The notes: generated by a model not told the origin, from the letters alone. A stretch of 64,000 bases of DNA from Desulfurivibrionaceae bacterium (GCA_030145275.1 JAQYVV010000006.1:8000-71999), one strand, 5' to 3'; positions 1,701-59,912 are shown, numbered from the stretch's first letter. Numbers and translations: made by a program.

Positions 1701-1807
1701 GTAAATATTTGGCATCGCTTTTCAGGGAGGTGAGCAGGCTGGCGTAGCGTAGTTGGCTACGTGAGACAGCCTGATCGCCTTCCTGGGAAGTGATGCCGAA
1801 TATTTAC
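1701..1807. repeat. Palindromic intergenic repeat, type A (termini GTAAATATTTGGCA...TGCCGAATATTTAC)
   Basis: The two ~41-nt arms are reverse complements apart from 7 mismatches. The core GATCAGGCTG-type module is shared with other copies in the window. Confidence 0.85.
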
Positions 1808-1840
1808 AAAATAACGACGAAGGGCCAAGGCATAAATATC

Positions 1841-2479
1841 ATGATAAAAATACTTCTCGCAGATGACCATAATCTTGTTCGTGAAGGTTTACGCCGTATC
1901 ATTGAAGAGAGTGAAGGCATTGAAGTTGTCGCAGAGGCTGAAAACGGCAGGGACGCACTTCAACTGATAAAAGAACATAAGCTGGATGTCGCCGTCATAG
2001 ATCTTTCCATGCCGGGGATTGACGGACTTGAGGTGATAAACATTCTCCGCGAGACAAATCCTGAGCTACCGGTAATCGTACTGACCATGCATGAAGAAGA
2101 GCAATACGTGGTTCGTGCCATTGAGGCCGGAGCAATGGGATACCTGACCAAGAGATCCGCCGCTGAACAACTGGTCAGCGCTATAAAAAAAGTACACGGC
2201 GGCTCTCGCTACCTCACTCCTGAAGCGGCAGAACTTCTTGCCTTGAGGCTTGCAACAGGTACAAGGGGGCAATCCCCTCTAGACAGCCTCTCCACAAGAG
2301 AGCTGCAAGTTTTGCGGCGCTTGGCAATGGGCAGAACAAACAGGGAGATTGCAGAATCATACTGCATCAGCATTAAGACAGTTGACACCTATCGCCTTAG
2401 AATCTTGAAAAAACTAAATTTGCGCAACAATGCGGATTTGTCCAGATTCGCTTTACAAAATAAGTTGATAGAAGGGTAA
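1841..2479 (+). CDS. NarL/FixJ-family response regulator (REC + LuxR-type HTH)
   Basis: MIKILLADDH start and the acceptor context VAVIDLSMPGIDG. The C-terminal region LSTRELQVLRRLAMGRTNREIAE...SIKTVDTYR is a LuxR HTH. The upstream 17 codons of the ORF lie in the repeat element, so the start was moved to 1841. Confidence 0.9.
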   Translation: MIKILLADDHNLVREGLRRIIEESEGIEVVAEAENGRDALQLIKEHKLDVAVIDLSMPGIDGLEVINILRETNPELPVIVLTMHEEEQYVVRAIEAGAMGYLTKRSAAEQLVSAIKKVHGGSRYLTPEAAELLALRLATGTRGQSPLDSLSTRELQVLRRLAMGRTNREIAESYCISIKTVDTYRLRILKKLNLRNNADLSRFALQNKLIEG

Positions 2480-2488
2480 GTGGGTGGA

Positions 2489-2530
2489 GATGCAAGATGA
2501 AAGATGAAAGATGAAAGATGAAAGATGAAA
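2489..2530 (+). repeat. Heptamer tandem array GATGCAA (GATGAAA)x5
   Basis: Six head-to-tail 7-nt units begin 9 nt after the response-regulator stop codon. Confidence 0.9.
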
Positions 2531-2562
2531 AGAGTAAACTAGAATTTAATACCTGCAACCGT

Positions 2563-2973
2563 CTATTCGAGAGATAAAAACCTTTTTGCTTTTTTGCATT
2601 TGTCTTGGACGGAGACTTTCAAATCAGTCTCTGAGGCCAAGATCAGAAGATCGTCCAGGTCAGTAGTCAGTAAAGTTCTATAGCCATCTGCATCAAATTT
2701 TCCCTGCCCAGCCTTTTTGTATTTTTGCGCTTCCTCTGCTTCTCTACGCTTCAACTCTGCGACAACCGCGATACCTTCCTGATCTTCCAGATAAACTGCG
2801 GCCCACAGCATGTGAGCCGAAGAGGGGTTGATCTTTTGGTCACTCTGCCAGAAATGGTATGGAAGATTCAGGACACCCATTTTCTTAATCAAAGAGATAT
2901 CAAGCCTCTTGCGTAAATCAACCATATCTGGCTCTCTTCCCTTTTGTAATGATTCAACAAATAAAGAAAACAT
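2563..2973 (-). CDS. Hypothetical protein (136 aa)
   Basis: Clean ORF with no motif I recognise. Confidence 0.45.
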   Translation of the reverse strand: MFSLFVESLQKGREPDMVDLRKRLDISLIKKMGVLNLPYHFWQSDQKINPSSAHMLWAAVYLEDQEGIAVVAELKRREAEEAQKYKKAGQGKFDADGYRTLLTTDLDDLLILASETDLKVSVQDKCKKAKRFLSLE

Positions 2974-3393: not shown

Positions 3394-4980
3394 CTAAGGA
3401 ACATACTCGTCGGCACCCATGTCGTAATCGTCAACGTCATCACCTAATCCACCCACATCATAAGGACGTGCATCTCCTTCTATATCGTCAGCCGGAGCAG
3501 AGGTGGCAGAGGCGCTATCGATACAGGGTGAAACGTTGGTGCAACCAGCTGGATTATCGGCCCCGTTACAGATCCGAAAATCCCCTGCAGTGGTGGGGCT
3601 GCCAGACCCAGCCTGCTGAAAATCAACAAACTCAGGGTTGGCGTCAATGTTGCCGGTGCCTGCATAACCACCTTCCACATCGGAATAGGTAACTGTCGGA
3701 GTACCACTAATATTCGGGCCGGTACCACCAGCAGTATTCCCCCAGATAACACTGTTGATAATGGTGCCAATACCATACAGGCCACCACCCCTATTCGCGG
3801 AATAATTGCCGCTGATGGTAGTGTTGTAAACGTTCAGCGTTCCAGCGCCGCAATATATACCACCGCCGTCATTAGCTTCGATAATATTACCGCTGACAAT
3901 ACAGTTGGTCAGGGTAACAGTACCTCCCAAATTCCTGATAGCGCCGCCATATGCCCCCGCCTTGTTTCCTTGGATTAAGCTACTGTTTACTTCGGCGCTT
4001 CCATTCTGGATGTATAAGGCGCCGCCATTCTTAACAGTAGCAGCTATATTGTCGTTGATGGTACTATTAGTAATAACCAAGGACGTGCCAGCATCAGCAC
4101 TGTAGACAGCGCCACCGTGCTGAGTTGAAGTGTTGCTGCTTACACTAACATTCGTCAACGCTGCCACAACCGTGCCTCTCAATCTGATAGCTCCACCATA
4201 AGTCCCACCATTGGAGTCAATGCTTGTGTCACTGATAGTTAACGTAGAGCCAGCATCTGCGTACACGGCACCACCGCTACCGGCAGTGTTACCGTTGATG
4301 CTGCTACCACCGCTAATAGTGGCGGCGGTGTTGTCGTCAAGGAAGATACCGCCGCCACTGTAAGCGGTGTTGCTTACAGTGTTGTTGTCGATGTTACTGT
4401 CGGTAATGGTAACAGTGCTCGAGGCACCGCTCAAATAGATGCCACCGCCATCTCTGGTTGTAGTGTTGCTGCTTACGCTGCTACTGGTAATGGCCAGTTT
4501 TGAGTTGTCGCAACGAATACCAGCACCATATTGCGCAGTATTGCCTATTACGTTTATATTAAGCAAGGTGGTGGCAGTAGTGGTCGACGCATTTAACAGG
4601 TAAATGCCACCACCAGATCCAGTGGGCTGGTTGCCCTGGATGATACAGTTCTTGATAAGTGGTGCAGAGAGGCTGTCAACCAAGATACCACGGGTGTTAC
4701 TGTTAGTGATGACAGACCCCTGATTATCAATAGTGAATCCATCCAGTACTGCACTATGTGCACCACTGCTGATATCAACCACCTGGCCATTAGTTCCGTC
4801 GCCTTGAATGGTTGTGGTTGCAGCACCATAGACTGACTGAACGGTGACACTTTTAGTCGTTGGGAAAACTATCCTTTCACTATAAGTGCCGTTGCTGACC
4901 AAGACACATTGACCATCGGCGGCTGCGTTGATACCGGCCTGAATGGTGGCTGCCTCACTGGGCACCTCGACGGCGTCAAC
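3394..4980 (-). other. Parallel beta-helix region 2 of the giant protein
   Basis: The same GGG(I/A)Y / GGA(V/I)Y periodicity as region 1. The C-terminus is DIEGDARPYDVGGLGDDVDDYDMGADEYVP. Coordinates are approximate. Confidence 0.7.
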
Positions 4981-7900
4981 CACGGTTAAGGTTTGCTCTA
5001 CAATGGCATTTCCGTTAGCATCAGCAGTACCGTCATTGGCGTAGAACAGGTATGCAACACCACCATCGGCCACATAAGGAACAAGGGTAGAAATAGTGTA
5101 GAGTTTGCCATCGGTGTAGTCACTATCACCACCATCCACAACGGTCAGGTCTATCTTTTCACCGCCGTCAAGGTAATCGCCGTCATCATTTTTGTCCACC
5201 CACAGCTGAATAGTCACAGGAGCAGTATTGAGTAATTGGGTATACTGGACCCGGAAAGTGTAAAGCCCGCCACAGGGCCCAGATTCTTCTTCAACACCAT
5301 CGATGGTATAACCGCTCTCTCCGGTCCAATCCAGATCTGGCGGAGGACTGGCTGCAAAAATTCCTACGGTGGAGTCAGAGGTTGGGTCACCGGTGGCCGC
5401 ATCTGTACCATCTCCAGCCCTAAAGCTGTAGTTAAGATTGTTGTCACCCGCAGAGTTAAGATTGATGGCAACCTTATAGAGTTTGCCGTCAGTGTAGTCG
5501 CTGTCGCCACCATCCACTGCGCTTAGGTCTACCTTTTCACCGACGTCAAGGTAGTCGCTGTCATCATTTTTATCCAGCCAGAGCTGGATGGAAGCAGGTG
5601 CCTCATTGTCTGCGTCGGTATACTTGATGCGGAAGTCAAAGAGGCTGCCATCCTCGTCATTATTAGGATCAACACCGTCTGAGACATAATTCAGCAATCC
5701 AGTCCAATCCAAGGTCGGAACATGGTTGGCAATGGTCACACTACTGGTTGTGGTTGTTACCGGATCACCGATGGCCGCGACGCCGTTGGCGGCGTAGAAG
5801 CGGTAGTTAAGGGTATTGTCTCCTGCCTTGAAAAAATTCACAGTCCTGGTGTAGATTTTACCATCAGTACAGTCGGTATCAGCACTACTAATCTCGGTCA
5901 TGGTGAGGGTTTCACCACTATCAAGATAATCACCGTCGTCGTTTCTATCCAGCCACACCTGAATGGAGGTGGGCGGCGTGTTATGGGCATCAGTATAGGA
6001 AACCTGGAAGACGAAATCACTGCTGATAAAGCCACTGTCCGGATGGGCTCCGTCCGTTACATAATCACCACTACCAAGCCATGCCAGTTGCGGCACACTG
6101 CTGAGAACAACGGTGTTGTCGGTAACGGGTTCGCCTGTGGCGAGATCATAAGTGTCGGCAGCATAAAAACGATAGTTGAGCACATCGTCACCAGCGTAAA
6201 CTAGGTTTAAAGACTTGCTGTAGAGTTTACCGTCGGTATAGGTGATGTCCCCGCCATCAACTGCACTCATGGTATACTTTTCACCAGCTTCATAGCTGCC
6301 ATTGTCGTTTTCATCCACCCAGAGCTGGATGGCAACAGGTGCATCGTTATCAGCATCAACGTATGTAGTCCGGAATTCGAAACTGGCTCCACTCACCCCC
6401 TGATCGGGGTCAACGCCATCAGCAGCATAATTTGTCTCGCCAGTCCACTCAAGACTCGGGATATTGTTAAACACAGTCCCGACCTCATAGGCCCCCATGT
6501 CAATACCAGCGCCATTGGGACGGATGTTGTTTTCAATATCCGAGGCAGGTGCACCGGTGGCGGTCCCTGCATCCACGGCTGCCGAGTGATTTGGCAGATG
6601 GTAATCGCCCTCGGAAGTGGGGGCATACGAAAAGTCAAGGGGATCAACAAAATATGGGTCAATATTAATATTATTGTTACCGCTGTAACCGTCCTCACCA
6701 ATGTCGGAATAACTGGCAGTGACAGTACCGTTTATCTGCGAACTGCTACCGTTGCCCCAAATGATGGAGTTTGTTAGCGTTACCGTGGCTGTAGCGTCAA
6801 AGGCGACCTCCACTGCACTGCCAGAGTTGCTAGTGTTACCGCTGATGGTGCAATTCAAAATATCAGCAGCCAGAACAACATCCTCCCCGCTGAAATGAAA
6901 CCCACCACCGTTATAATCTCCCTTGTTGCCGCTTACCACACTGTTAACGAATGATGCAGTTGTGTTGCCGTCAACATAGGCACCGCCGCCATACTGGGAA
7001 CTATTTCCGGTAAAGAAAGATCTCTCAATAGTCGCGGTGCCGCCAGAGAGCAGTAGACCGCCACCTTTGGCAAAAAAAGCGCTAGAATTATCACGAATAG
7101 AGGAATCGATAAGGGTGAAGGTATTACCTGCCCCATTGACAACAGCTACGCCGCCGCCGCCTGTTCTACCATCGTTATCATTGAAGGTGGAACCGCTTAT
7201 GGTCATCGAGTCCAGAGCGACCAAACGTATAGCCCCCCCTGCAGAAGTACTTGAAGTATTACTGCTAAACGTGCTGTCGGAGATGCTGCCGGTAAGAAGA
7301 GTGGCCCCAGCACTTTCTAAATACACGCCGCCGCCATTCTGGGCACTGTTGCCACTGATGGTGCTATCGTCGATACTCACGATTACAGTACCGCCTGTGG
7401 CATTGCAATAGATTCCGCCGCCATAGGCGAAGTTGGTTCCGGAGTTGCCGCTGATGGTAGAACTGGAAACGGCCAGCGATGCATCAGCACTGGTTGCCAT
7501 AAAGATTCCGCCGCCACGATTGCCGCTGTGGTTATTACTGATGGTGGAGCCGGAAATATCCGCCGAACTGCCGCTGTCCAGATAGATGCCGGCACCATGT
7601 GATCCAGCGGTGTTACTGCTGATAGTCGTGGCACTAATAGTCACAGTGGACGAAGCCCCAATGACGTAGATACCACCGCCGCCACTATTGCCGATGTTAT
7701 TAGTTATAATAGAATTGATAATGGCAGGCGAAGAATCACTGATGTAGAGACCGCCCCCTTTGCCAAAATTTATTTGATTGCCGTTCTGCACAGTTACGCC
7801 GTTAAGTACTGTATCAGCGCCATTTTTAATCGTAACCGTTGAACCGGAGGCATTACCATCAATAATGCTGGAAGCAGCGCCGTTTTCAGAGATAATGGTC

Positions 7901-10900
7901 AGGTCCTTGTTGTCAATGGTGATTTTCTCCGTGCAGGTTCCGTCTGCAAGCAGGAGGGTATCACCATTCGCAGCATTGTTGATCGCTGTCTGCAGTGAGG
8001 TGTAGTCATAGTCTCCGGTGCCGTCACAAGACACCTTGATAGTATTAACGAAAAGGGTAACGATGTTGTCATTAGCCGCTATACCGCCGGCATCCACGCT
8101 GCCGTCAGAAGCAAAGAAACGATAGTTGATCACGCCGTCCCCCGCAATAAGCAAGGTTGTTGTCGCAACATACATTTTACCATCAGAGTAATCGGTATCC
8201 GAAGCATCAACGACGGTCAGGTCGATCTTTTCATCGCTGTCGTCGTAATCATCATCATCATTCCTGTCCACCCAAAGCTGTATTGCAGTAGGTGTGGTAT
8301 TGTCGGCGTCACTGTATTGCACCTGGAAGCTGAAACTGCTGTTATCAAGCCCGCTATCCGGATCGACACCGTCGGTGACATAATTGCTTACCCCGGTCCA
8401 GGTTAGTAGCGGCGCTGTGTTGCTGCTAGTCACGTTTACTGATCTGTCAGTGGTGGGCGTGCCTGTGGCTTCAAGCGCATCGCGTAAGGCGTAGAAGCGG
8501 TAGTTAAGCGAACCATCACCCGCATAGGCGAGGGCCAGCGTCTTGGAATATAATTTGCTGTCTGTTAAGGTGGTGTCGCCACTATCAACCTCGGTCATCT
8601 CATACTTTTCACCAGGCTCATAACTGCCGCTGTCATCAACATCCACCCATACCTGAATATTGCTTGGCAAGAGATTGTCGGCATGGCTGTAATCTATCTG
8701 GAAAACAAAAGAAGATCCGGAGGCTCCACTGTTGGGACTGACACCATCGGCGCTGTACCCTGCCTCACCACTCCAAGCCAGAACCGGAACATCCGGGTTC
8801 AGGGTAATCGTGGCGCCAGTAACCGGACTGCCGGTCGCTGTGCCATTTCTGTCCATGGCATGGAAGCGATATGAGAGAGTGCCGTCTCCGACACTGTTGA
8901 GCGCCATGATCCTGGTATACAACTTGCCATCTGATGAGTCGTGATCGCTGTCGTCAACATCAAACATGGTGAATTTTTCGTTCTCTGCATAACTGCCGCT
9001 GTCATCAACATCCACCCATACCTGGATAACAGTGGGGCGGTCACGATTGGCGTCAGTATATTCTACCCGGAAGGCAAAATAATTGCCGGACTGAGCGCTA
9101 TCAGGGCTGACACCATCGGTGGTGTAGCCTGCTTCGCCGGTCCAGGCCAGGGTCGGCGCTTCCTGGGCTATAGGATTGGAGCTTCGGGGATAGATATAGC
9201 CCCCACCAGTCGCATTACCATGGCAGTCTGAACACAGATTATCGGAAGTGTTGGAATCCCAGAATGTGCCGGTGCTGTCTGGCAAGTAAATTGGTTGGCT
9301 GGGCTCGACTACATCCCTGGTAGTTACATAACTGACTGAGGGAGATCCTACTACCATATCGGTGTAGAAAATTTTCATCCCCGGCTCCTTGCCAGTCAGC
9401 TTGCCGTCCCTGATCATGGAGAGTTGAGTTGATCCATGGACGTTGTGGCAGTTGATACAGGTGATAGTATTTTTCCCTGTGGTGCTGCGCCAATCGGATC
9501 TAAACCTGTATTGCATGCCAAGATGGTACTCGTGAGCATTGACAGGAGCAGGGTCAGGGCCTGTTGGATTCCAGTCTAAATCGTCCCGGAAGGTGGTACC
9601 GTATTCCGTAGATTTAGTCAGGTATTTATCCGGCAGATGGCAACCGTTACTGGAAAAACAGAGCCGATGCTCGTCTTGATTGGGCGTAACTCCAGTAAGT
9701 GGTACCACCATGGGATTAAGATCGTCCACCAGATTAAGACGATACCCCAGTCGGTACTCGTCCGAGTCGCAGTCACGATCATTTTGATCAATATCATTAG
9801 CAGGATCAGCATCAGTACAATCAAAGGACCGTGCCACGCCGTCGATATGTGCGGCGGAGTAGTCATGGCAATCATCGCACCCCTTGCCGGCACCCTGGAC
9901 CACGCCTCCGCTGGCGGGATAGGTGTCAGCACTATCCAGACCATGACCGGTCTTGTAATAGCCCCAGCCGGTACCGACGCCGTAGGTATAGTCACCGTCT
10001 TCGTCGCCGATGACATTGGGGGCACTGATAGCGCTGGCTACTGACGGAGCCTCATCATGACAGGTGGCACACCATTTATCTTTACCGGCCTGCAGCGTAA
10101 CACTGTCTGACTCGTAAATAGCGGTGTCCCAGTTATTTTTTGCGCCCACCACAGCGTCACTGACGCCGTCGTATGTACCGCCTTGACTATGGCAGGTATC
10201 GCAGACCGTGGTCAACAGCAGACTGGAAGCCCCATCCGCAAAGTCTGGGAAATTAGCTGTATCATGGCAGGTATCACAACCCACATTGGGGCCTTTTAAG
10301 TCATCACTGTCATTTTCTGTATGGGTTGAATGGCTCCAAAATGAGCCTGCGCCACCAGTGGCACCACCGTAGCCTGGATCATGGCCATGGCAGGGCTCAC
10401 AGCCCGGCCCCTGGGAATCAATACCATGGGCAAAGCCCTGAGTATGGGCATGGCAGCTAATGCAGTCGATGCTGGTCACGGCCCCGGCATTGGTATGATT
10501 CTGGTCCGGACCGCTCCCGTCATTACGAAAATGGTCGGTCATGGTATGGCAAACTTCACAGATGCCGTCGTAGATTGCATCGCCATCAGCAAAAGAATTG
10601 TCCCCCTGCCTGTCGGAGAACTTGACCGTGGCATCATCTGTGCCATCATCCGGCGTGTTATTCCAGTCAACCAATCGCTTGATGTATTGACCGTAGATGA
10701 CACCAAAGTTAGTGGGAGGACTGATATAGGTGTACATAGAGCGAACATCCCCAGCCACGGTCATGGTCGTGGCGTCGATAGCTGTAACCGCAAAGGCGTT
10801 ACCCGTTTTTCTCAGGTTGGGTAAGAGGATGGGCCGCCTGGCCGCTGTAGTCTTTTCGGTTATGGAATCTATGTCCCAGCCACTCTTAAAAGCCCCGCCG

Positions 10901-11331: not shown

Positions 11332-11818
11332 ATAACCTATTTCCTGTTCCTTTGAGAAAAACTCATATTATTCCAACCGATTACCAGCAGGTGCAATACG
11401 GTCAAATTTCTAGATGATAACGATGCAACAGCCTTTACGTATGCTCGATGAACTCGCTTGCTTCATTCAGAGAGCCTAATTTCATAAGCGAATCATCGGT
11501 GTGGTGGATAAGACGCATGAGCATAACTACCATCAATAATGACGTAGCGATAGTTGACAGAGGCCAGATCCGTGCTATTTATGGGAGATCTACGGCGCCT
11601 CGGCAAATTATACTGCTGCCTCTGCCCAAGGCCTGCACTCGGCGACCCAGACAATCCATGCGTAGCATGGATAAGCGGGCCGAGCTTATGGCAATCTTAC
11701 ACTAGGGAACTCCAGGAAACACACGGAGCACTCTGAATCAATCATATTGATGATACCACTAAAATTTCGAATTTCTCACAACTTTTTAAGAAAACAACTA
11801 ATAGCTTACATGGTTTTT

Positions 11819-14188: not shown

Positions 14189-14372
14189 ATTCAGTCCCCT
14201 TGATAAAAACTCGCTATCATTATAACCGGATCCCGGCAGGTTAACTCAAATCAACGATCCATATTATCATTGTACAAATGGCCCCACGATACCCAAACAG
14301 AGAAGAAAGAAGCTTCCTTAAGTTTGAGCTTCTAAGAGTTCCCAAATGGGGTACTGCGGGAACTTTACTGGT

Positions 14373-20320: not shown

Positions 20321-20341
20321 TGTATCTTCACTCCTTTATTG

Positions 20342-20450
20342 GTAAATATTCGGCAACACTCCAGCTACGCCCGACCTGGCCGACTCACGTAGAACTACTA
20401 CGCTTCGCCAGCCAGATCGAACACATCTGAAGCGTTGTCAAACATTTACA
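20342..20450. repeat. Palindromic intergenic repeat, type A
   Basis: GTAAATATTCGGCAACAC...GTTGTCAAACATTTAC. It shares the CACGTAGAACTACTACGCTTCGCC core with the copies at 21498 and 34149. Confidence 0.85.
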
Positions 20451-20465
20451 GAATAGTGGTTTTTA

Positions 20466-21476
20466 TTAGTTTTGGGCAGCAAGCCGAATATTTACCTTTA
20501 TTGAATCGGAAAGCATCCCCACGGCGAGGGCGTAATAGGTTGATCGGTTCCATTTCATTAGGACCCTGAAATTATCATATATCAAAAAATATCGGTTTTC
20601 AGATTTATCCGGATGAATGAGAGATGCGCTCACCTGTGCGGCAGGAAGGGAAGCTCCTTTTGCTGTGCGCACTCCAAGTCCCTGCCAATAAGACAAATCT
20701 TTTTGGGTGGAAAGCCCAATCAAACTGGGGTCCAATCCCGAGGGGACAAGGACCTCCCTGCCCCATTTCCAGCCAGGTTGCCATCCAGAGACAGAGAGAT
20801 AGTTGGCTCCGGAGGCAAAAAGATCGCCACCCTGTTGCCATATTTCTATCTTCCCGTCAGGTTCAAAGTCGACTCCATATTTCCGAAAAACAGAGGGTAG
20901 AAACTGAAGATACCCCATCGCCCCGGCCCATGACCCTTCCATCTGCGACATGGAAACTTTTCCATCATCCAGTAGGTGCAAGGCATCAAGCAGTTCTTTT
21001 TTAAAAAAGGCACTGCGCCTTGGATCATAGGACAACGTTGCAAGTGCTTCTATTATTGGAAAGCCGCCGGTTACCCTGCCAAAGTCAGTCTCTATGCCCC
21101 ATAAAGCAACGAGTACGTGAGGTGGAACTCCGTACTTCCGGGCCACCTTTTCCAAAAGGGGATAATTTTTATTAAGCTCATTGCGCCCTTTTTTAACCCG
21201 AATAGAAGATATTGTCCGAGATAAATATTGGCTGAGGTTTAGTTTAAATTCAGGCTGGTTTCTATCAAGTTTTATGACCAGTTCATTATAGCTAACTCGA
21301 GAAAAGGCGTTTTCCAAAGTCCCAGAGGATATACCCGCAGTAATGGCCTCCCCCTTAAACTGCTGTACCCAGGAATCAAAACCAGCCCCTTCAGATTCCG
21401 TGGCCTGACAGATCGCGGCAACAGCAAAGAACAATACAAAAACAATGATTCCCTGGATAGATACTCTATGACTCAT
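20466..21476 (-). CDS. mltB: Lytic murein transglycosylase (MltB family)
   Basis: Signal peptide, then LVALWGIETDFG and GAMGYLQFLPSVF motifs. The start was moved to MSHRVSIQG because the first 13 ORF codons lie in a repeat terminus. Confidence 0.8.
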   Translation of the reverse strand: MSHRVSIQGIIVFVLFFAVAAICQATESEGAGFDSWVQQFKGEAITAGISSGTLENAFSRVSYNELVIKLDRNQPEFKLNLSQYLSRTISSIRVKKGRNELNKNYPLLEKVARKYGVPPHVLVALWGIETDFGRVTGGFPIIEALATLSYDPRRSAFFKKELLDALHLLDDGKVSMSQMEGSWAGAMGYLQFLPSVFRKYGVDFEPDGKIEIWQQGGDLFASGANYLSVSGWQPGWKWGREVLVPSGLDPSLIGLSTQKDLSYWQGLGVRTAKGASLPAAQVSASLIHPDKSENRYFLIYDNFRVLMKWNRSTYYALAVGMLSDSIKVNIRLAAQN

Positions 21477-21497
21477 GCTATACTGTAATCCCTTAAG

Positions 21498-21722
21498 GTA
21501 AATGTTCGGCAACACTCCATGACGGAGTCTACACTACGTTTCGCTTACCTACGCCCGCCCAACGGAAGTGCCCTTGGGGTGCGATCAGGCTGACTCACGT
21601 AGAACTACTACGCTTCGCCAACCTGATCGAACACATCTGAAGCGTCGGAGTCTTCGCTTACCTGTCAAACATTTACATTTTATTGGTTATTGTTGTTTTC
21701 CAGTGTTAGCCGAATATTTACC
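21498..21722. repeat. Composite type A repeat (nested modules plus TTATTGTTGTTTTCCAGTGTTAGCCGAATATTTAC tail)
   Basis: It is homologous in inverse orientation to 34149-34315, and its tail is also present at 24078-24122. Confidence 0.85.
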
Positions 21723-21920
21723 CTTTAAGATAGAAATATTGGTAAATGTTGCTACTCTACCGTATTCCCCCCTTTTTTTCCAGCAAAGACAGCCCCCCCC
21801 TGGGCAACTATCTGCCTCAACAACATCCTCAAGCCCCCAGCAGATCAAAAAAAAAGGGTGCCTTATAAAAGACACCCTTATCCCAGAGCCTATCTCGCCC
21901 TTATGTAAATATAATCATAG

Positions 21921-22095
21921 TTGCTATTCAGGTAGGGCCCCAAAACGGGCATAACCACCAAATTGTAACTGTTTAGATGTGCCCCAGGTGTGTGTGAACA
22001 GGCCTTTCAGCAGATAGCGAACAAAGTGAGACTTCGATACATCGGTATGCTGGAAGTCCTGTTCGCGCGCAGATGGGGTGCAGCTGAACAGTTAC
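21921..22095. repeat. Palindromic intergenic repeat, type B (GTAACTGTTTAGATGTGCCCC...GCAGCTGAACAGTTAC)
   Basis: It shares CAGGTAGGGCCC-AAAACGGGCATAACCAC and the GAACAGGCCTTTCAG hairpin module with 30537-30726 and 52632-52780. Confidence 0.85.
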
Positions 22096-22110
22096 ATATA
22101 ATCATCGTAA

Positions 22111-23418: not shown

Positions 23419-23440
23419 AACTACCTCCCTTTTCTTTTTA

Positions 23441-24077: not shown

Positions 24078-24122
24078 ATTTTGTTGATTATTGTTGTTTT
24101 CCAGTGTTAGTCGAATATTTAC
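24078..24122. repeat. Partial type A repeat (tail module only)
   Basis: AATTTTGTTGATTATTGTTGTTTTCCAGTGTTAGTCGAATATTTAC matches the tail of 21498-21722. Confidence 0.8.
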
Positions 24123-24363
24123 CGGTAATCAGTAGTGCCACCCTTGCACTACGATCAGCAATATGACGCCGCTTTGCTGCTATCTGATCATTATAAACAT
24201 TTTCATTTTTGACCAATTGGCAGTTTAGTACCTTAGAAATCATTTCGAAGTCTGCGCTTATCTCGTGTTTTTTATACCCCCCCAGGTAAGCGTTAGACTC
24301 CGAGGGGGTACTGAACTGAGTGGCAATAAATGAAGAAAGTAGATTCATTTGAGCGTGTTGCAT
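24088..24363 (-). CDS. Hypothetical protein (91 aa), doubtful
   Basis: Its last ~11 codons (..GKYSTNTGKQQ) are encoded by the repeat, and it has no recognisable motif. Confidence 0.25.
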   Translation of the reverse strand: MQHAQMNLLSSFIATQFSTPSESNAYLGGYKKHEISADFEMISKVLNCQLVKNENVYNDQIAAKRRHIADRSARVALLITGKYSTNTGKQQ

Positions 24364-29377: not shown

Positions 29378-29428
29378 AGGAGAGTAAATTTTCGGGTTGA
29401 AGCTGAAAACTACTAAAACCACCTAATT

Positions 29429-29536
29429 GTAAATGTTTGACAGCGCTTCACAGGGAGGTGATCAGGTCGATCAGCTATACAATCGGTATGCTGGTTGGCC
29501 TGATCACCTTTCTGTGGAGTGCTGCCGAATATTTAC
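29429..29536. repeat. Palindromic intergenic repeat, type A
   Basis: GTAAATGTTTGACAGCGCTTCACAGGGAGGTGATCAGG...CCTGATCACCTTTCTGTGGAGTGCTGCCGAATATTTAC. Confidence 0.85.
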
Positions 29537-29549: not shown

Positions 29550-30533
29550 TTGAACACACCTGATTACAACAAGCTGCGCAACGCCATAGCCCAATTTGAC
29601 TCGGCCCGCATCCTTGTCATTGGCGATATCATTCTTGATCATTTTATCTGGGGATCCGTGGCAAGAATTTCACCGGAGGCACCAGTTCCGGTCGTTAATG
29701 TCACCCATGAGAACCTTTTGCTTGGCGGTTCGGCCAATGTCCTTCATAATATCTACGCCTTGAACGGCCAGGCGACCATCTGCGGCATAATCGGCCAGGA
29801 CCAGATGGGTGAGCATATCATCAAACTGCTTGAAGACCTCGGTTCTTCAACAGAAGGAACTATCCGCTCTCCAGACCGGCCAACAACCATTAAAACCAGA
29901 ATTATTGCAAGGCATCAGCAGGTTGTTCGTTTTGACCGTGAGGCAACTGAGTGCATTGATGACGCCATTCTAAAAAATGTTTTGGACTTTTTCGGGGCTA
30001 ATCTTGGTGAATTTGATGCCGTTATTGTTTCGGATTATGCCAAGGGCATTGTCTGTGATGCTCTCATGACCTCACTACAAGAAGAATTAGTAAAACATCC
30101 TCATATTCCTTTGGTGGTAGACCCAAAACCTGGATCACAAAGACGTCTGAAAGGGGCCACTCTGATAACCCCAAATCATCATGAAGCTGAACAGATGTCA
30201 GGCATCAAAATAGTTGATGACAACAGCCTACAGATTGCCGGAAGCAAACTTCTCGAGGAGCTGGAGAGCAAAGCCGTTCTCATTACTCGCGGCGAGGCTG
30301 GCATGGCCCTTTTTGAAAAAAATAAACCAATGGTTACCATTCCGACCATGGCCAAAGAGGTCTTCGATGTTACAGGCGCTGGAGATACCGTCATAGCCAC
30401 CCTTTCACTAGGCCTTGCTGCGGGCCTCTCATTTGTCGAGGCAGCAACTCTGGCAAACGTTGCAGCTGGAATTGTAGTTGGAAAGGTGGGAACCGCCACC
30501 GCAAATATTGAAGAGATACTAGGAGCATTTTAA
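29550..30533 (+). CDS. hldA: D-glycero-beta-D-manno-heptose-7-phosphate kinase (RfaE domain I only, PfkB fold)
   Basis: ARILVIGDIILDHFIWGSV.RISPEAPVPVV, ITPNHHEAE, and DVTGAGDTVIA. A TTG start at 29550 follows AGGAG at a 6-nt spacing. The longer ORF start lies inside the repeat. Confidence 0.8.
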   Translation: MNTPDYNKLRNAIAQFDSARILVIGDIILDHFIWGSVARISPEAPVPVVNVTHENLLLGGSANVLHNIYALNGQATICGIIGQDQMGEHIIKLLEDLGSSTEGTIRSPDRPTTIKTRIIARHQQVVRFDREATECIDDAILKNVLDFFGANLGEFDAVIVSDYAKGIVCDALMTSLQEELVKHPHIPLVVDPKPGSQRRLKGATLITPNHHEAEQMSGIKIVDDNSLQIAGSKLLEELESKAVLITRGEAGMALFEKNKPMVTIPTMAKEVFDVTGAGDTVIATLSLGLAAGLSFVEAATLANVAAGIVVGKVGTATANIEEILGAF

Positions 30534-30536
30534 CTT

Positions 30537-30726
30537 CAGGTAGGGCCCAAAAACGGGCATAACCACAGAATTGTAACTGTTTAGATGTGCCCCACTCCGG
30601 GTGTGTGTGAACAGGCCTTTCAGCTATACATCGGTATGCTGGAAGGCCTGTTCGCACCCCAAGGGTACTTCCGTTGGGCGCGCGCAGGTAGCGCAGACTC
30701 CGGATGGGGAGCAGCTGAATAGTTAC
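30537..30726. repeat. Palindromic intergenic repeat, type B
   Basis: It is the reverse-complement homologue of 52632-52780 and shares its 5' flank module with 21921-22095. Confidence 0.85.
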
Positions 30727-34148: not shown

Positions 34149-34315
34149 GTAAATATTCGACTAACACGTGAAAACAACAACCAACGAAATGTAAATGTTT
34201 GACAGGTAAGCGAAGACTCCGACGCTTCAGATGTGTTCGATCAGGTTGGCGAAGCGTAGTAGTTCTACGTGAGTCAGCCTGATCGGGCGCAGCTGAAGGG
34301 TTGCCGAATATTTAC
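34149..34315. repeat. Composite type A repeat (inverse orientation of 21498-21722)
   Basis: GTAAATATTCGACTAACACGTGAAAACAACAA... followed by a nested GTAAATGTTTGACA...TTGCCGAATATTTAC unit. Confidence 0.85.
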
Positions 34316-35570: not shown

Positions 35571-35630
35571 GTAATTATTCAGATGTGCCCCAGGTAAGCG
35601 CCCGCCGGTGGGGTGCAGCTGAATAGTTAC
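35571..35630. repeat. Minimal type B repeat
   Basis: GTAATTATTCAGATGTGCCCC-aggtaagcgcccgccggt-GGGGTGCAGCTGAATAGTTAC. Confidence 0.8.
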
Positions 35631-37842: not shown

Positions 37843-37887
37843 TTTACTCTTTTATTTGGAATTACGAAGCAAAGAAAATGGACATTA

Positions 37888-38058
37888 GTAAGTATTCGGC
37901 ATGACTCCATCTTCGCACGATCAGGCTGTCTCACATAGCCAACTATGCTACGCCAGCCTGATCGCACGAGGTAAGCGTAGACTCCGATATGAAGCCATGC
38001 CAAACATTTACAAATTTTTCGGTTTATGTAACTTTTTTAGCTCATGCCGAATATTTAC
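37888..38058. repeat. Composite type A repeat
   Basis: GTAAGTATTCGGCATGACTCC...GATCAGGCTG...CAGCCTGATC...CATGCCAAACATTTAC plus a second CATGCCGAATATTTAC terminus. Confidence 0.85.
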
Positions 38059-38134
38059 GGGCATTAGCAGCAATTGCCTTGCAGTTCTAAGGTTTAAGGT
38101 TCATACCTGTTCCTGCTGAACCTAGAATGAAACA

Positions 38135-46863: not shown

Positions 46864-46879
46864 GTAGCTGAATAGTTAC
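46864..46879. repeat. Solo type B terminus (GTAGCTGAATAGTTAC)
   Basis: It matches the right terminus of the type B copies and lies between convergent kinase genes. Confidence 0.5.
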
Positions 46880-52615: not shown

Positions 52616-52631
52616 TAAAGCTTCCTTTTGT

Positions 52632-52780
52632 GTAACTGTTCAGCTGCACCCCATCCGGAGTCTGCGCTACCTGCGCGCGCCCAACGGAAGTACCCTTGGG
52701 GTGCGAACAGGCCTTCCAGCATACCGATGTATAGCTGAAAGGCCTGTTCACACACACCTGGGGCACATCTGAACAGTTAC
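52632..52780. repeat. Palindromic intergenic repeat, type B, between ftsQ and ftsA
   Basis: GTAACTGTTCAGCTGCACCCC...GGGGCACATCTGAACAGTTAC with an internal GAACAGGCCTT...AAGGCCTGTTC hairpin. Confidence 0.9.
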
Positions 52781-52793
52781 CCTTTTGTCGTAC

Positions 52794-57131: not shown

Positions 57132-57165
57132 AATAGTCTCATTTAGGAATAAGCGCTGGCGGTTC

Positions 57166-58614
57166 TTAGCCCTCTCTCCTTGCCATCTCACCCACACAAT
57201 CTGCAAAGCATCTGCCACGTGCGGCGTAACTTTCAAACATATCAAAACTGGCACATGCTGGTGACAAGAGAACGGTATCGCCAGGTGCCGCAATTTTATG
57301 GGCTTTGCGAACTGCGCCTTGCAAAGAATCAAACAGTTCAATTTGTGTTAATCCAGAAAATGATTCAGCCATTTTATCCTTTGCTTCACCGATGAGAAAA
57401 AGCGCTTTCACCTTCCGCTTCACTTCCTTTTTCAAGGGAGAATAATCTCCACCCTTGTCTCGCCCTCCAGCAATTAGGAGAACCTCCCCCTGGATTGACT
57501 CCAATGCACTTTGTACAGCACCCACGTTGGTAGCCTTGGAATCATCAATGTAGGTTACTCCATCAATTTCATCCACAAATGTGAGCCGATGAGGCAGAGG
57601 GTTGAAACTGGCCAACCCCTTTTTAATTCCATCCAGATCGCATCCCATTGATACCGCAGCCAAAATTGCGGCACCACTGTTTTCTAAATTTGGCGATTCT
57701 CTCAGCCTGGTTGTTGATAGATCTACAAGCTCCTCCTCTCTGGAGGTATCAGCAAACACCAGTTTAACTTTTTTATCCTGCAGCACAGCGCCCTTTTGGA
57801 AAGCACCACTTCTTCCGTAAAAAAGAACACTCCTCTCCTCCCACCCGTGCCTTAAACTGGTTTTATTTTCTATATATTTCTGGGCCTCAAAATCATCCGC
57901 ATTGATGATTGAGACATCTGTTCCCTGCTGGTTTTGGAATATGCTGTATTTCGACAGGGCATATTCTTGAAAAGATTCGTACCGGTCAAGATGGTCTTGG
58001 CTAATATTTAAGAGAACAGCCACTTCCGGTTTTAAATTACCTGCGGTATCGAGCTGGAAACTGCTAATTTCCAGAATAACCGCATCCATATCTTGGGCTC
58101 CTGCCAGATAATCAGTTAACGGTGTGCCAATATTTCCGCCAACAAACACCTTTTTGCCGCAGGACCTAAATATATCCCCTAAAAGGGTGGTAACCGTTGT
58201 CTTGCCATTTGTACCAGTAACTGCAAGCATTGGAGTTTTCAAATAGTTAGAGGCAAGGCTCATTTCCCCCACCACTGGCACGCCCTTACTTCGCACTGCA
58301 ATCAACACCTCTGAGTCAAGCGGCACACCAGGACTTACCAGAACCAAATCTGCTGTATCAAAAAGTTTTCTGCTATGCCCTCCCGATTCCAGATGAACTC
58401 CTATTTTTTTTAGTTCCTGGCAACGCTCCTGATCCAACTTAGCATAAGGGGCCGCATCTGAAACCGACACTCTGGCCCCAAGCTGTAGGCAGAATTTTGC
58501 GGCTGACAAACCTGATTTACCAAGCCCCACAACAATGACATGCTCATCTACACCAATGACAACCTGCCGCAAACTAGAAACTGCGACATTTTTTGCTGGT
58601 TTTTCAAAATTCAT
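57166..58614 (-). CDS. murD: UDP-N-acetylmuramoylalanine--D-glutamate ligase
   Basis: VVGLGKSGLSAAKF, VTGTNGKTTVTTL. Confidence 0.93.
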   Translation of the reverse strand: MNFEKPAKNVAVSSLRQVVIGVDEHVIVVGLGKSGLSAAKFCLQLGARVSVSDAAPYAKLDQERCQELKKIGVHLESGGHSRKLFDTADLVLVSPGVPLDSEVLIAVRSKGVPVVGEMSLASNYLKTPMLAVTGTNGKTTVTTLLGDIFRSCGKKVFVGGNIGTPLTDYLAGAQDMDAVILEISSFQLDTAGNLKPEVAVLLNISQDHLDRYESFQEYALSKYSIFQNQQGTDVSIINADDFEAQKYIENKTSLRHGWEERSVLFYGRSGAFQKGAVLQDKKVKLVFADTSREEELVDLSTTRLRESPNLENSGAAILAAVSMGCDLDGIKKGLASFNPLPHRLTFVDEIDGVTYIDDSKATNVGAVQSALESIQGEVLLIAGGRDKGGDYSPLKKEVKRKVKALFLIGEAKDKMAESFSGLTQIELFDSLQGAVRKAHKIAAPGDTVLLSPACASFDMFESYAARGRCFADCVGEMARREG

Positions 58615-58627
58615 AACTGACCAAGCA

Positions 58628-59707
58628 TTATCTCAGTTTGAGAGTAGCAAGAGCTGACAGTCCAAGGATTATGGAGACAATCCAAAACCTGACTACTATT
58701 TTAGGTTCATGCCAGCCTTTCTTTTCATAATGGTGATGAAATGGGGCCATCAAAAATATCCTCTTGCCGCCACTTACTTTGAAAAATCCAACCTGCATAA
58801 TGACAGACAAGGCCTCCATCACAAAAATACCTCCAACCAGGGCAAGAAGTATTTCCTGTTTAATGATTATTGCCACCGTGCCAATTGAGGCGCCAAGAGC
58901 AAGAGAACCCGTATCTCCCATAAAGATCTGGGCCGGGAAGGTATTAAACCATAGAAACCCCAGGCTCGCCCCAACCATGGCCCCACAAAAAATCGCCACC
59001 TCACCTGCTCCAGCAACGTAAGGGATCTGCAGGTACGAGGAAAGAAGTGCGTGGCCTGCCAGATATGAAAAAACCAAATAAACAGCACTGCTGGTCACAG
59101 TGGGACCAGTGGCCAGTCCATCCAACCCGTCTGTCAGATTGACCGCATTCGAGGATCCGACAATAACCAGTAGAGCAAACAGAATATAGCCACTTCCCAA
59201 ATCAGGCCTGAAATCCTTAAAAAAAGGCAGGCTAAGCTGACCGCCAAGATCGGATATATTATAGATAAACACCGCAGCAATTGTGCCCCCAATAATTTGC
59301 AGACATAATTTCCAGCGCGCACTAAGTCCTTTGCTATTATTCTTTTTTATTTTCCTAAAATCGTCATAACTGCCAATTGCAGCAAACCACAAAGCAACTG
59401 CCAGCAAGATCCATACATATATGTTGACAAGGTTAACCCACAATAAGGTAGTCAGCACCATGACGCCGATAATCATCGCCCCACCCATGGTGGGAACTCC
59501 CTCTTTGCTAAAATGGCTTTCCGGCCCATCTTCTCGTATCACCTGACCTATTTTATACTGCCGCAGCCTTCGTATAAACCAGGGCGTCAGGAAAACAACG
59601 AGCAGGAAAGAGGTTACAATGGCCCCGACACACCTAAAAGTAATGTATCGAAAGACATTAAAAACCCCAAACAGGTCGTTAAGTGGAAAAAGAAAATGAT
59701 AAAACAT
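58628..59707 (-). CDS. mraY: Phospho-N-acetylmuramoyl-pentapeptide transferase
   Basis: GVPTMGG, NAVNLTDGLDGLA, and a polytopic membrane profile. Confidence 0.95.
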   Translation of the reverse strand: MFYHFLFPLNDLFGVFNVFRYITFRCVGAIVTSFLLVVFLTPWFIRRLRQYKIGQVIREDGPESHFSKEGVPTMGGAMIIGVMVLTTLLWVNLVNIYVWILLAVALWFAAIGSYDDFRKIKKNNSKGLSARWKLCLQIIGGTIAAVFIYNISDLGGQLSLPFFKDFRPDLGSGYILFALLVIVGSSNAVNLTDGLDGLATGPTVTSSAVYLVFSYLAGHALLSSYLQIPYVAGAGEVAIFCGAMVGASLGFLWFNTFPAQIFMGDTGSLALGASIGTVAIIIKQEILLALVGGIFVMEALSVIMQVGFFKVSGGKRIFLMAPFHHHYEKKGWHEPKIVVRFWIVSIILGLSALATLKLR

Positions 59708-59760
59708 TGATTAAGTTTGTCCTGTTCCGGTTAAACTTCGTTTATTTACGTTCAATAATG

Positions 59761-59912
59761 GTAACTATTCAGCTGCGCCTCATCTGCGCCCGATCAGGAC
59801 GGCCAGCATACTTATGTATAGCTGACCGGCCTGATCGAACACATCTAAGGCACATCTGAACAGTTACGCTTGGGAGTTTACCCATGTTATGCAATTCTCT
59901 CTGAATAGTTAC
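59761..59912. repeat. Type B repeat plus extra terminus, between murF and mraY
   Basis: GTAACTATTCAGCTGCGCC...GGCACATCTGAACAGTTAC, followed by ...CTCTGAATAGTTAC. Confidence 0.88.

What the first reader, a model, noticed from the sequence alone, without database searches (positions are those of the whole stretch)
1701..59866. Arm mismatches in the repeats are polarised transitions: near-perfect G-U-containing hairpins on one strand only
These are hand alignments of the two arms of several copies.
- 1701-1807: 7 mismatches. Six are transitions, and all six are G-U compatible on the plus strand.
- 20342-20450: 11 mismatches. Ten are transitions, and 9 of these are G-U compatible on the minus strand.
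- 29429-29536: 7 transitions, 6 compatible on the plus strand.
- 59761-59866: 6 transitions, all compatible on the minus strand, plus 4 transversions.
Each element therefore has a U/G-rich arm and a C/A-rich arm. It folds far better as RNA (or single-stranded nucleic acid) from one strand than from the other. That points to selection at the single-strand level and not to a plain DNA palindrome. In 7 of the 10 copies I scored, the foldable strand is the sense strand of the flanking genes (1701, 20342, 29429, 30537, 37888, 52632, 59761). In 3 it is the antisense strand (21965, 34149, 35571).
Basis: seen in the sequence. Interest (0 to 1): 0.65.

Follow-up and report, generated by a model that had tools for sequence, protein, structure and literature searches.

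The report
Strand-polarised hairpin transposon repeats (IS66-type MITE)
The repeats are about 150-base non-coding jumping elements of the IS66 transposon type, carried by sulfate-reducer-like (Desulfobulbia) bacteria, whose roughly 50-base-pair internal hairpin has been kept foldable on one strand only, which points to selection on a single-stranded RNA or DNA form of the element.

Summary
All 11 copies in the window fold 10-34 kcal/mol better on one strand, because arm mismatches are almost all transitions that read G·U on that strand and A·C on the other.

The objects are miniature transposons (MITEs) of the IS66 type. They have GTAA termini and 8-bp target duplications, sister genomes hold empty sites, and IS66-family transposase genes carry the same 12-nt terminus.

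It consists of the left terminus T1, a ~32-nt A-rich spacer, and the hairpin, whose arms end in an inner terminus copy (T2) and the right terminus (T3).

The better-folding strand is the one with T1 at the 5' end in 145 of 146 copies. This holds for two subfamilies and many Desulfobulbia genomes. The stem shows strong compensatory change (25 of 45 pairs; 0 of 500 shuffles reach this).

So polarity is an inherited property of the element, maintained by selection on a single strand. It is not linked to host gene direction (34 sense, 22 antisense, p=0.14) or to replication direction.

RNA and single-stranded DNA cannot be told apart here. I favour RNA. This is a new family of a known kind, of moderate interest.

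The parts
1656..1807 (+). Full element, terminal type A. Head (T1 GTATATATTCGAC plus spacer) at 1656-1700; hairpin at 1701-1807. Target duplication AAAATAAC at 1648-1655 and 1808-1815.
   Evidence: 8/8 duplication. (fold -77.0 on +, -53.3 on -).
20342..20495 (-). Full element, type A. Hairpin at 20342-20449; head at 20450-20495. Target duplication CTTTATTG at 20334-20341 and 20496-20503. It lies just upstream of the ribosome-binding site of the gene that starts at 20320.
   Evidence: Fold -31.6 on +, -65.9 on -.
21498..21721 (-). Full element, type A, with extra internal modules. Hairpin at 21498-21676; head at 21677-21721. Duplication CCCTTAAG/CCTTTAAG (7/8).
21920..22095 (+). Full element, type B. 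Degenerate head at 21920-21964; hairpin at 21965-22095. Antisense to the flanking genes. Flanked by an 11-nt direct repeat instead of a clean 8-bp duplication.
   Evidence: -75.2 on +, -50.1 on -..
24078..24123 (-). Solo head module (T1 GTAAATATTCGACT plus A-rich spacer) with no hairpin.
   Evidence: repeat family D7..
29384..29536 (+). Full element, type A. Head at 29384-29428; hairpin at 29429-29536. Target duplication GAAGGAGA at 29376-29383 and 29537-29544.
   Evidence: Fold -79.0 on +, -50.4 on -.
30530..30726 (+). Full element, type B. Degenerate head at 30530-30572; hairpin at 30573-30726. Target duplication GGAGCATT at 30522-30529 and 30727-30734. The element supplies the stop codon of the upstream pfkB-like ORF.
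   Evidence: -95.2 on +, -74.0 on -..
34149..34315 (+). Full element, type A. Head at 34149-34190; hairpin at 34191-34315. Antisense to the flanking genes. Decayed duplication (5/8).
35571..35630 (+). Short 60-nt type-B hairpin with no head and no target duplication. Antisense to the flanking genes.
   Evidence: -31.2 on +, -21.1 on -..
37888..38058 (-). Full element, type A. Hairpin at 37888-38011; head at 38012-38058. Duplication GGACATTA/GGGCATTA (7/8).
46866..46879 (-). Isolated type-B terminus fragment (GCTGAATAGTTAC).
52632..52780 (-). Type-B element made of the hairpin only, between ftsQ and ftsA. Perfect 12-nt termini. Target duplication CCTTTTGT at 52624-52631 and 52781-52788.
   Evidence: FtsA, FtsQ..
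59761..59912 (-). Full element, type B. Hairpin at 59761-59867; head at 59868-59912. Target duplication CAATAATG at 59753-59760 and 59913-59920.
   Evidence: Fold -49.8 on +, -76.1 on -.

Best explanation
Shown: what the repeats are.
The repeats are copies of a non-autonomous transposon (MITE) that is moved by IS66-family DDE transposases. The full unit is about 150 nt and has three parts:
- a left terminus T1 (GTAAATATTCGGC, or GTAACTATTCAG in a sister subfamily);
- a ~32-nt A-rich spacer;
- a ~107-nt (60-220 nt) hairpin. Its left arm begins with an inner copy of the terminus (T2). Its right arm ends in the right terminus (T3).
Insertion duplicates 8 bp of target.

Shown: the hairpin is conserved on one strand.
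The hairpin has been maintained during the diversification of the family by selection for base pairing on one strand only, the strand that reads T1 to T3. Stem segments have been replaced by different sequences that still pair. Mismatches are G·U on that strand and hardly ever A·C. The polarity is therefore inherited by every new copy and is independent of where or in which direction the copy lands.

Inferred: which molecule is selected and why.
- The selected molecule is most likely the RNA made when the element is transcribed. On that strand it forms a helix that is often uninterrupted for 20-47 bp. Such a helix could be a substrate for double-strand-specific processing (RNase III type) or a stability module.
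- The opposite-strand transcript carries an A·C mismatch every few base pairs.
- Wobble substitutions are the only changes that can do three things at once: keep the RNA helix, break the perfect DNA palindrome (which would be genetically unstable), and disable T2 as a second transposase end.
For: MITE of the IS66 type:
- Termini matching GTAAMTRTTY occur 29 times in the window against 1.0 expected.
- Filled and empty sites in sister genomes show 8-bp duplications: GTTGGTTC, GCTTAAAC, TTCATAAG/TTCATGAG.
- The 8-mers flanking head-bearing copies are at least 7/8 identical in 65 of 89 (set 1) and 50 of 64 (set 2) copies. None of 103 controls placed 20 nt further out reaches 6/8.
- The IS66 family is defined by IRs that start GTAAGCG and by 8-bp direct repeats (PMC11946415).
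- An IS66 TnpC fragment flanked by 24-bp terminal repeats beginning GTAAATATTCGGG lies at L118:313-1394.
- Its homologues are named IS66 family transposase and carry PF03050.
- Two of those genes have GTAAATATTCGGGTTAGT about 100 nt upstream.

Selection on one strand:
- Alignment A1: 45 pairs, 25 with changes on both sides (shuffles 11.3 ± 1.6, 0 of 500 reach 25), 97.7% of cells paired.
- G·U 218 cells against A·C 10. On the opposite strand 83.7% of cells pair.
- G·U columns have both G-C and A-U neighbours, so both C/U and A/G changes are involved.
- With orientation taken from the head alone, G·U against A·C is 562:68 (type A) and 357:111 (type B).
- The head is 5' on the better-folding strand in 85 of 86 and 60 of 60 copies.

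T2 is disabled in head-bearing copies:
- Headless copies that have target duplications carry a T2 identical to T3 in 7 of 9 cases. Head-bearing copies do so in 36 of 158. Fisher p=0.0012.

Helix length:
- An uninterrupted helix of at least 20 bp is present in 63 of 165 copies on the good strand and in 5 of 165 on the other.

One orthologous pair:
- The hairpin differs at 3 of 107 positions and the head at 8 of 45.
Against: - There are no transcript data.
- The foldable strand is not significantly the sense strand of the neighbouring genes (34:22, p=0.14; type B alone 12:12). This is not what a function inside host mRNAs would predict.
- No promoter or terminator consensus was found inside the elements.
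- DNA energy parameters favour the same strand in 110 of 110 copies, with a mean ddG of 8.4 kcal/mol. A single-stranded DNA form fits equally well.
- Many copies are near-identical, so independent events are far fewer than cells. Private changes within one subfamily give only 8 WC-to-G·U against 3 WC-to-A·C.
- The transposase genes that share the terminus were found in related Desulfobacterota, not in the window, and they share only the first 12-13 nt.
- The conservation argument from orthologous copies rests on one pair. A second pair shows no difference.
Confidence: 0.6

Rival explanations
1. The selected molecule is single-stranded DNA. One particular strand of the element folds back during transposition or replication, for example a displaced strand in a copy-out step. 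The hairpin helps or regulates mobilisation, and G·T wobble is tolerated there.
For: - Polarity is tied to the element's own architecture and not to host transcription.
- DNA parameters favour the same strand in 110 of 110 copies.
- Selection acting on element lineages, meaning on transposition success, would explain why all new copies carry the polarity.
Against: - The 8-bp duplications and paired terminal repeats are the signature of a DDE transposase acting on duplex ends.
- None of the papers I searched or read reports a hairpin requirement for IS66.
- In the window the elements point both ways (6 versus 5) although GC skew is negative throughout. This does not fit insertion coupled to the replication fork, as is known for IS200/IS605 (from my own knowledge).
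- G·T is much weaker in DNA: ddG is halved.
Confidence: 0.2
2. The hairpin works inside host mRNAs on the sense strand. It would stabilise or process transcripts, and insertions are kept preferentially in the sense orientation.
For: - The window has 8 sense and 3 antisense copies.
- Several sense copies end a few bases before the downstream ribosome-binding site.
Against: - The independent type-B set gives 12:12, and the combined count is 34:22, p=0.14.
- Copies with only one callable flank give 23 of 46 and 13 of 31 sense.
- Polarity follows the head, not the gene direction.
Confidence: 0.1
3. There is no selection on folding. The asymmetry is a founder accident of one master copy, or the product of strand-biased deamination, and it has simply been copied by transposition.
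For: - Most copies are young and closely related: 73-78% have intact duplications, and only 16 distinct sequences occur among 24 M1 copies.
- Private changes show only a weak bias, 8:3.
Against: - Different stem variants and two terminal types carry G·U at different columns: 21 columns have G·U, while 7 have A·C, mostly as singletons.
- 25 pairs show double compensatory changes, which no shuffle reaches.
- Both A/G and C/U changes contribute, so cytosine deamination alone does not explain the pattern.
- Both element orientations occur within a region of uniform GC skew.
Confidence: 0.07
4. The repeats are members of an already named palindromic repeat family: ERIC, Correia/NEMIS, or REP/REPIN moved by a RAYT.
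For: The size (~110-150 nt), intergenic location, whole-length hairpin and high density (11 copies in 64 kb) resemble ERIC and REPINs. This was my first impression, from memory.
Against: - The host is a Desulfobulbia lineage, not an enterobacterium or a Neisseria.
- The target duplication is 8 bp, not TA or none.
- The head tetranucleotide is GTAA, not GTAG or CGTC (title of PMC3733652).
- The termini match IS66-type transposase genes.
- No Rfam family reaches its threshold.
Confidence: 0.02

Closest known systems
IS66-family insertion sequences and MITEs derived from insertion sequences
   Same: - Termini begin GTAA. GTAAATATTCGGC compared with the family's GTAAGCGTCCGGC shares the pattern GTAA...T.CGGC.
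- Target duplication is 8 bp.
- Transposase genes of the family (PF03050) carry the same 12-nt terminus in related genomes.
- The elements are short, non-coding, multicopy, and have empty sites in sister genomes.
   Different: - There is no transposase gene in the element or in the window.
- There are three terminus copies (T1, T2, T3).
- The interior is a ~50-bp hairpin under structural selection, which the IS66 elements seen here (L118, L200, L201) do not have.
ERIC (enterobacterial repetitive intergenic consensus) elements
   Same: - They are ~127-bp intergenic MITEs that fold as long RNA hairpins, are co-transcribed with neighbouring genes and reach hundreds of copies (PMC10969869).
- Internal insertions give size classes. 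Effects on mRNA that depend on orientation have been reported in Yersinia (RNase E site; PMC10969869).
   Different: - Host clade is different, and I saw no sequence similarity by eye (no formal alignment was run).
- ERIC duplicates TA (from my own knowledge); this family duplicates 8 bp.
- ERIC has no known partner transposase; here there is a link to IS66.
Correia / NEMIS elements of Neisseria
   Same: High-copy MITEs, often inside operons. The paired terminal repeats in the transcript are cut by RNase III (PMC10969869). This is the mechanism I infer here for the foldable strand.
   Different: - In Correia only the ~26-bp terminal repeats pair; here the whole element pairs.
- Correia has a TA target, IHF sites and promoters.
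- No strand polarity is reported for Correia, to my knowledge.
REPINs (paired REP sequences moved by RAYT transposases)
   Same: A ~100-nt whole-length hairpin made of two inverted repeats. Conservation of the hairpin has been argued to act on single-stranded DNA or RNA (PMC3116915, listed; not read in detail).
   Different: - REPs carry GTAG or CGTC heads and make no target duplication.
- They are moved by a single-strand (HUH) transposase.
- Here the head is GTAA, the duplication is 8 bp, and the transposase link is to a DDE-type enzyme.

Membership tests
MITE (miniature inverted-repeat transposable element) | Short (under ~300 bp) and without a transposase gene | tested here: met
   Units are 60-224 nt. 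No conserved ORF: the frame opened by the ATG in T2 closes in variants M3, M4 and type B (read directly from the sequences).
MITE (miniature inverted-repeat transposable element) | Terminal inverted repeats | tested here: met
   T1 and T3 are identical for 12-13 nt.
MITE (miniature inverted-repeat transposable element) | Target-site duplication, and empty sites in related genomes | tested here: met
   Three filled/empty pairs. 115 of 153 head-bearing copies have flanking 8-mers at least 7/8 identical, against 0 of 103 controls at 6/8 or better.
MITE (miniature inverted-repeat transposable element) | Many copies per genome | tested here: met
   11 copies plus 2 fragments in 64 kb.
MITE (miniature inverted-repeat transposable element) | A transposase with matching termini in the same genome | tested here: inconclusive
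   Matching termini lie next to IS66-type tnpC in L118 (a genome from the repeat scan) and in L200/L201 (other Desulfobacterota). None is in the window. The window's own genome is not in the collections.
IS66 family (as source of the termini) | Terminal repeat starting GTAA(GCG), 20-30 bp long | tested here: met
   The terminus is GTAAATATTCGGC or GTAACTATTCAG. The L118 derivative has a 24-bp perfect terminal repeat. Family definition from PMC11946415.
IS66 family (as source of the termini) | 8-bp direct repeat of the target | tested here: met
IS66 family (as source of the termini) | DDE_Tnp_IS66 transposase (TnpC) bounded by the same termini | tested here: met
   L118:313-1394. PF03050 homologues. 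GTAAATATTCGGG lies ~100 nt upstream of tnpC in L200 and L201. Only the left ends were visible in L200 and L201.
IS66 family (as source of the termini) | The element is actually mobilised by that transposase | not testable with these tools
   Needs a mobilisation assay.
ERIC | Enterobacterial/Vibrionaceae host and TA target duplication | tested here: not met
   The host is Desulfobulbia-like. The duplication is 8 bp.
REP / REPIN-RAYT | GTAG or CGTC head, no target duplication, RAYT gene flanked by the repeats | tested here: not met
   The head is GTAA and 8-bp duplications are present. I did not search for a RAYT gene.
Any curated RNA family (Rfam 15) | Match at the family's gathering score | tested here: not met
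   0 matches in the window. Only sub-threshold pre-miRNA-like hairpin matches appear at the relaxed threshold.
RNase III-processed MITE hairpins (Correia-like mode of action) | Transcript is cleaved by RNase III within the paired arms | not testable with these tools
   Only the precondition could be checked: an uninterrupted helix of at least 20 bp occurs on the good strand in 63 of 165 copies, against 5 of 165 on the other strand.

The most novel reading that the evidence does not exclude
The hairpin is not passive cargo. It would be a functional single-stranded (RNA or DNA) component of the life cycle of an IS66-type element. For example, it could be a structured RNA that the element needs to control or direct its own transposition. 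Or it could be a module that the host has recruited genome-wide as an orientation-dependent RNA-processing signal. In either case, wobble pairs would be selected because they keep the helix while inactivating the inner terminus and the DNA palindrome.
Probability: 0.2. Interest if true: 0.65.

Novelty: new member of a known kind. Interest (0 to 1): 0.4.

Why it matters
- Why many bacterial MITEs are whole-length hairpins is still unsettled. Here the direction of the wobble pairs gives a clean, sequence-only indication that a single strand is the selected form.
- The polarity is locked to an independent marker, the head. The family therefore offers matched pairs of natural insertions, sense and antisense, for testing what such hairpins do to transcripts.
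- The family ties a high-copy hairpin MITE to a named transposase family (IS66), which makes mobilisation experiments possible.
- The repeat marks a Desulfobulbia lineage sharply enough to expose mis-binned contigs in metagenome-assembled genomes.
- For annotation, these elements create false ORFs and false start codons and can change gene ends. One example is the pfkB-like stop codon at 30531-30533.

Tried and rejected
- ERIC or another enterobacterial repeat was my first impression. I rejected it once the collection scan returned only Desulfobulbia-type MAGs and the duplication proved to be 8 bp.
- REPIN/RAYT or IS200/IS605-type single-strand transposition. Rejected because of the 8-bp duplications, the GTAA head, and both orientations occurring in a region of uniform GC skew.
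- Rfam at gathering score and at relaxed threshold. Nothing beyond generic hairpin resemblance to miRNA precursors.
- Promoter and terminator consensus scan over 20000-38500. No recurrent site inside the elements, so an internal promoter in the head is not supported.
- Exact-protein look-up of FtsA to identify the source genome. Nothing on record.
- Comparison of the ftsQ-ftsA junction in 80 relatives. The closest is 74% identical and none carries the element there, so these are too distant to serve as an empty site.
- Search for solo T1 motifs to find the direct parent IS. The pattern was swamped by hairpin arms. The direct parent, with termini matching beyond 13 nt, was not found.
- A peptide encoded from the ATG created in T2. 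The frame is open in variants M1 and M2 but closed in M3, M4 and type B, so I dropped this idea.
- Counting G·U pairs from the union of both strands' MFE structures. This inflated the minor-strand count, because the weaker strand refolds into other structures. I replaced it with arm alignment oriented by the head.
- Sense bias.

Full report
**Observation.** The window holds a repeat family whose ends match GTAAMTRTTY: 29 matches against 1.0 expected. Eleven full copies form long hairpins, and in every one a single strand folds much better, by 10 to 34 kcal/mol. Across 58 symmetric copies from the window and related genomes, 354 transitions fall on the major strand and 14 on the minor. A binomial null gives about 242 and never more than 262 in 10,000 simulations. 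Randomising the polarity of each mismatch lowers the mean strand difference from 21.2 to 7.0 kcal/mol.

**What the repeats are.** The window comes from a Desulfobulbia-like chromosome. It carries multihaem cytochromes, two-component systems and the ftsQ-ftsA cell-division cluster. The closest FtsA in the species-representative collection is 74% identical. Scans with the repeat's termini returned only Desulfobulbia/Thermodesulfobacteriota MAGs, plus two MAGs with implausible labels.

Comparing loci from sister genomes gave filled and empty sites. The inserted unit runs from GTAAATATTCGGC to GCCGAATATTTAC and is flanked by an 8-bp duplication of the target: GTTGGTTC, GCTTAAAC, TTCATAAG/TTCATGAG. 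It consists of:
- a left terminus T1;
- a ~32-nt A-rich spacer (T1 plus spacer is the 'head');
- the hairpin, whose left arm begins with an inner copy of the terminus (T2) and whose right arm ends in the right terminus (T3).

In the window, nine of the eleven copies have recognisable 8-bp duplications, for example AAAATAAC around 1656-1807, CTTTATTG around 20342-20495 and GAAGGAGA around 29384-29536. Over all head-bearing copies, 115 of 153 have flanking 8-mers at least 7/8 identical. None of 103 control pairs taken 20 nt further out reaches 6/8.

**Link to IS66.**
- The IS66 family is characterised by 20-30-bp terminal repeats that start GTAAGCG and by 8-bp direct repeats (PMC11946415; further terminal sequences in PMC12888890).
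- The present termini share the pattern GTAA...T.CGGC with these.
- One locus from the repeat scan (L118:313-1394) is a 1.08-kb element with perfect 24-bp terminal repeats beginning GTAAATATTCGGG. It encodes the N-terminal part of an IS66 TnpC fused to a DruA/DUF4338 C-terminus.
- Its homologues are named IS66 family transposase and carry PF03050.
- Two such genes on long contigs have GTAAATATTCGGGTTAGT about 100 nt upstream.

I therefore file the repeats as MITEs with IS66-type ends. The direct parent was not found: its termini should match beyond 13 nt and it should sit in the same genome.

**The hairpin is under structural selection on one strand.**
- An alignment of 33 distinct 107-112-nt copies (A1) gives a consensus hairpin of 45 pairs, 25 of which show changes on both sides with pairing kept.
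- Against shuffles, 97.7% of cells pair (89.1% expected). No shuffle out of 500 reaches the observed number of covarying pairs or the observed covariation score. Sliding the partners by 1-3 columns collapses pairing to 32-51%.
- Whole stem segments differ between variants yet still pair, for example GGGAGGTGA/TCGCCTTCC against ATGCACGC/GTGTGCAGA.
- In the same alignment, G·U cells number 218 and A·C cells 10. G·U occurs in 21 pair columns, while A·C occurs in 7, mostly as singletons. The mirror structure on the other strand would pair only 83.7% of cells.
- G·U columns have both G-C and A-U alternatives. Both C/U and A/G changes therefore contribute, which argues against a cytosine-deamination artefact.

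**The polarity belongs to the element.** The rows of A1 were oriented by folding energy, so I needed an independent marker and used the position of the head. The head is 5' of the hairpin on the better-folding strand in 85 of 86 copies. A second, independent sample came from scanning for the right arm of the sister subfamily (type B, GTAACT termini). It yielded 83 copies, 81 distinct, from many other Desulfobulbia MAGs, and the agreement there is 60 of 60. With orientation taken from the head alone and a strand-neutral arm alignment, G·U against A·C is 562:68 for type A and 357:111 for type B. New insertions thus inherit the asymmetry.

**What the polarity is not linked to.**
- Host gene direction. 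Between co-directional flanking genes, the foldable strand is sense in 22 of 32 copies in the first set and 12 of 24 in the second. Combined this is 34:22, p=0.14. A stronger bias appeared only under an ORF-length threshold chosen after seeing the data and did not replicate.
- Replication direction. GC skew is negative across the whole window, yet six copies fold on + and five on -.
- RNA specifically. DNA energy parameters favour the same strand in all 110 copies, with half the energy difference.

**A clue from T2.** In head-bearing copies, T2 usually differs from T3 by two wobble-preserving transitions (GTAAATGTTTGG against GTAAATATTCGG). Headless copies that nevertheless carry a target duplication must have transposed using T2 as their left end. 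In these, T2 is identical to T3 in 7 of 9 cases, against 36 of 158 head-bearing copies (Fisher p=0.0012). This fits a picture in which the inner terminus is disabled for the transposase at the duplex-DNA level while its pairing with T3 is preserved in the single strand.

**Most likely mechanism.**

Shown:
- An IS66-type MITE.
- An inherited one-strand hairpin maintained by compensatory evolution.

Inferred:
- The selected form is the RNA.
- On the T1-to-T3 strand, the helix is uninterrupted for at least 20 bp in 63 of 165 long copies (up to 47 bp), against 5 of 165 on the other strand. Only transcripts of that strand would therefore be good substrates for a double-strand-specific nuclease, as shown for Correia elements and RNase III (PMC10969869).
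- Wobble changes also break the perfect DNA palindrome, which long inverted repeats need in order to be stably maintained (established knowledge, not tested here).

Evidence on conservation after insertion is thin. One orthologous pair shows the hairpin more conserved (3 differences in 107) than the head (8 in 45), and a second pair shows no difference.

The lack of a sense bias and the equal fit of DNA parameters keep the single-stranded-DNA rival alive. I rate the RNA reading as the most likely but not established.

**Comparison with known families.** The elements work like ERIC and Correia elements: intergenic, co-transcribed hairpin MITEs. They are not members of either family, because host, target duplication and termini all differ. 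They are not REPINs either: the head is GTAA, an 8-bp duplication is present, and the transposase link is to a DDE-type enzyme. No Rfam family matches. My literature searches found no description of this family.

**Verdict.** This is a new family of a known kind of element. Its notable features are three terminus copies and a hairpin polarity locked to the element's architecture. Interest is moderate. It is a clean natural system for asking what hairpin MITEs do, but nothing here contradicts current understanding.

Noticed in passing
window 30522-30740: The pfkB-like ORF (29433-30533) ends at a TAA (30531-30533) that lies inside the degenerate left terminus of element 30530-30726. After the downstream copy of the target duplication (GGAGCATT, 30727-30734) the sequence reads AGCATGA. 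Before the insertion, the pfkB stop therefore probably overlapped the yicC start (ATG at 30738). The insertion changed the protein's last residues and uncoupled the two genes.
   Followed up: partly
window 29433 and other type-A copies (e.g. 34195, L021:7664-7770): The A-to-G change at position 7 of the inner terminus creates an ATG (GTAAATGTTT). In two stem variants the frame stays open through the whole hairpin (about 34 codons, with a hydrophobic second half). In other variants and in type B it closes. ORF finders therefore start false or extended genes inside the element, for example the ORF 29433-30533.
   Followed up: partly
window 21909-22116: Element 21920-22095 is flanked by an 11-nt direct repeat (ATATAATCATA / ATATAATCATC) instead of an 8-bp duplication. 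It is followed at 22107 by another GTAACTATTC terminus. This suggests insertion next to an older terminus, or a rearrangement between copies.
   Followed up: no
window 24078-24123 and 46866-46879: A solo head module (terminus plus A-rich spacer, no hairpin) and an isolated type-B terminus fragment. They look like remnants of deleted copies.
   Followed up: no
L201:3400-7861 and L118:313-1394: The IS66-type elements that share the MITE terminus carry a DruA/DUF4338-like gene downstream of tnpC. The L118 copy is an internal deletion that fuses the tnpC N-terminus to the DruA-like C-terminus.
   Followed up: partly
L004, L005, L010, L012, L014, L130 (JAIWHJ01, 'Promethearchaeota') and L002, L017, L131 (DAOVYS01, 'Pseudomonadota'): MAGs labelled as an Asgard archaeon and as Pseudomonadota carry many copies of this Desulfobulbia repeat and a bacterial FtsA 69-70% identical to the window's. 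The bins, or their labels, are probably wrong.
   Followed up: no
window 31627-31776: An inverted repeat built from short AAGTTGAAAG-like units (arms 31627-31657 and 31746-31776, 81% complementary), between yicC and the next ORF. It is unrelated to the MITE family.
   Followed up: no
window 3394-14212: A 2645-aa ORF with internal repeats of about 375 nt (5099-9028). A segment about 80% identical is duplicated at a spacing of 2845 nt (10667-11364 against 13512-14212), linking this ORF to the neighbouring multihaem cytochrome/PKD-domain gene.
   Followed up: no
window 21854-21879 (- strand): A canonical intrinsic terminator (11-bp stem followed by T7) sits between two MITE copies, downstream of the rhodanese-like gene. 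Element 21920-22095 therefore lies inside that gene's 3' untranslated region, in the antisense orientation.
   Followed up: no
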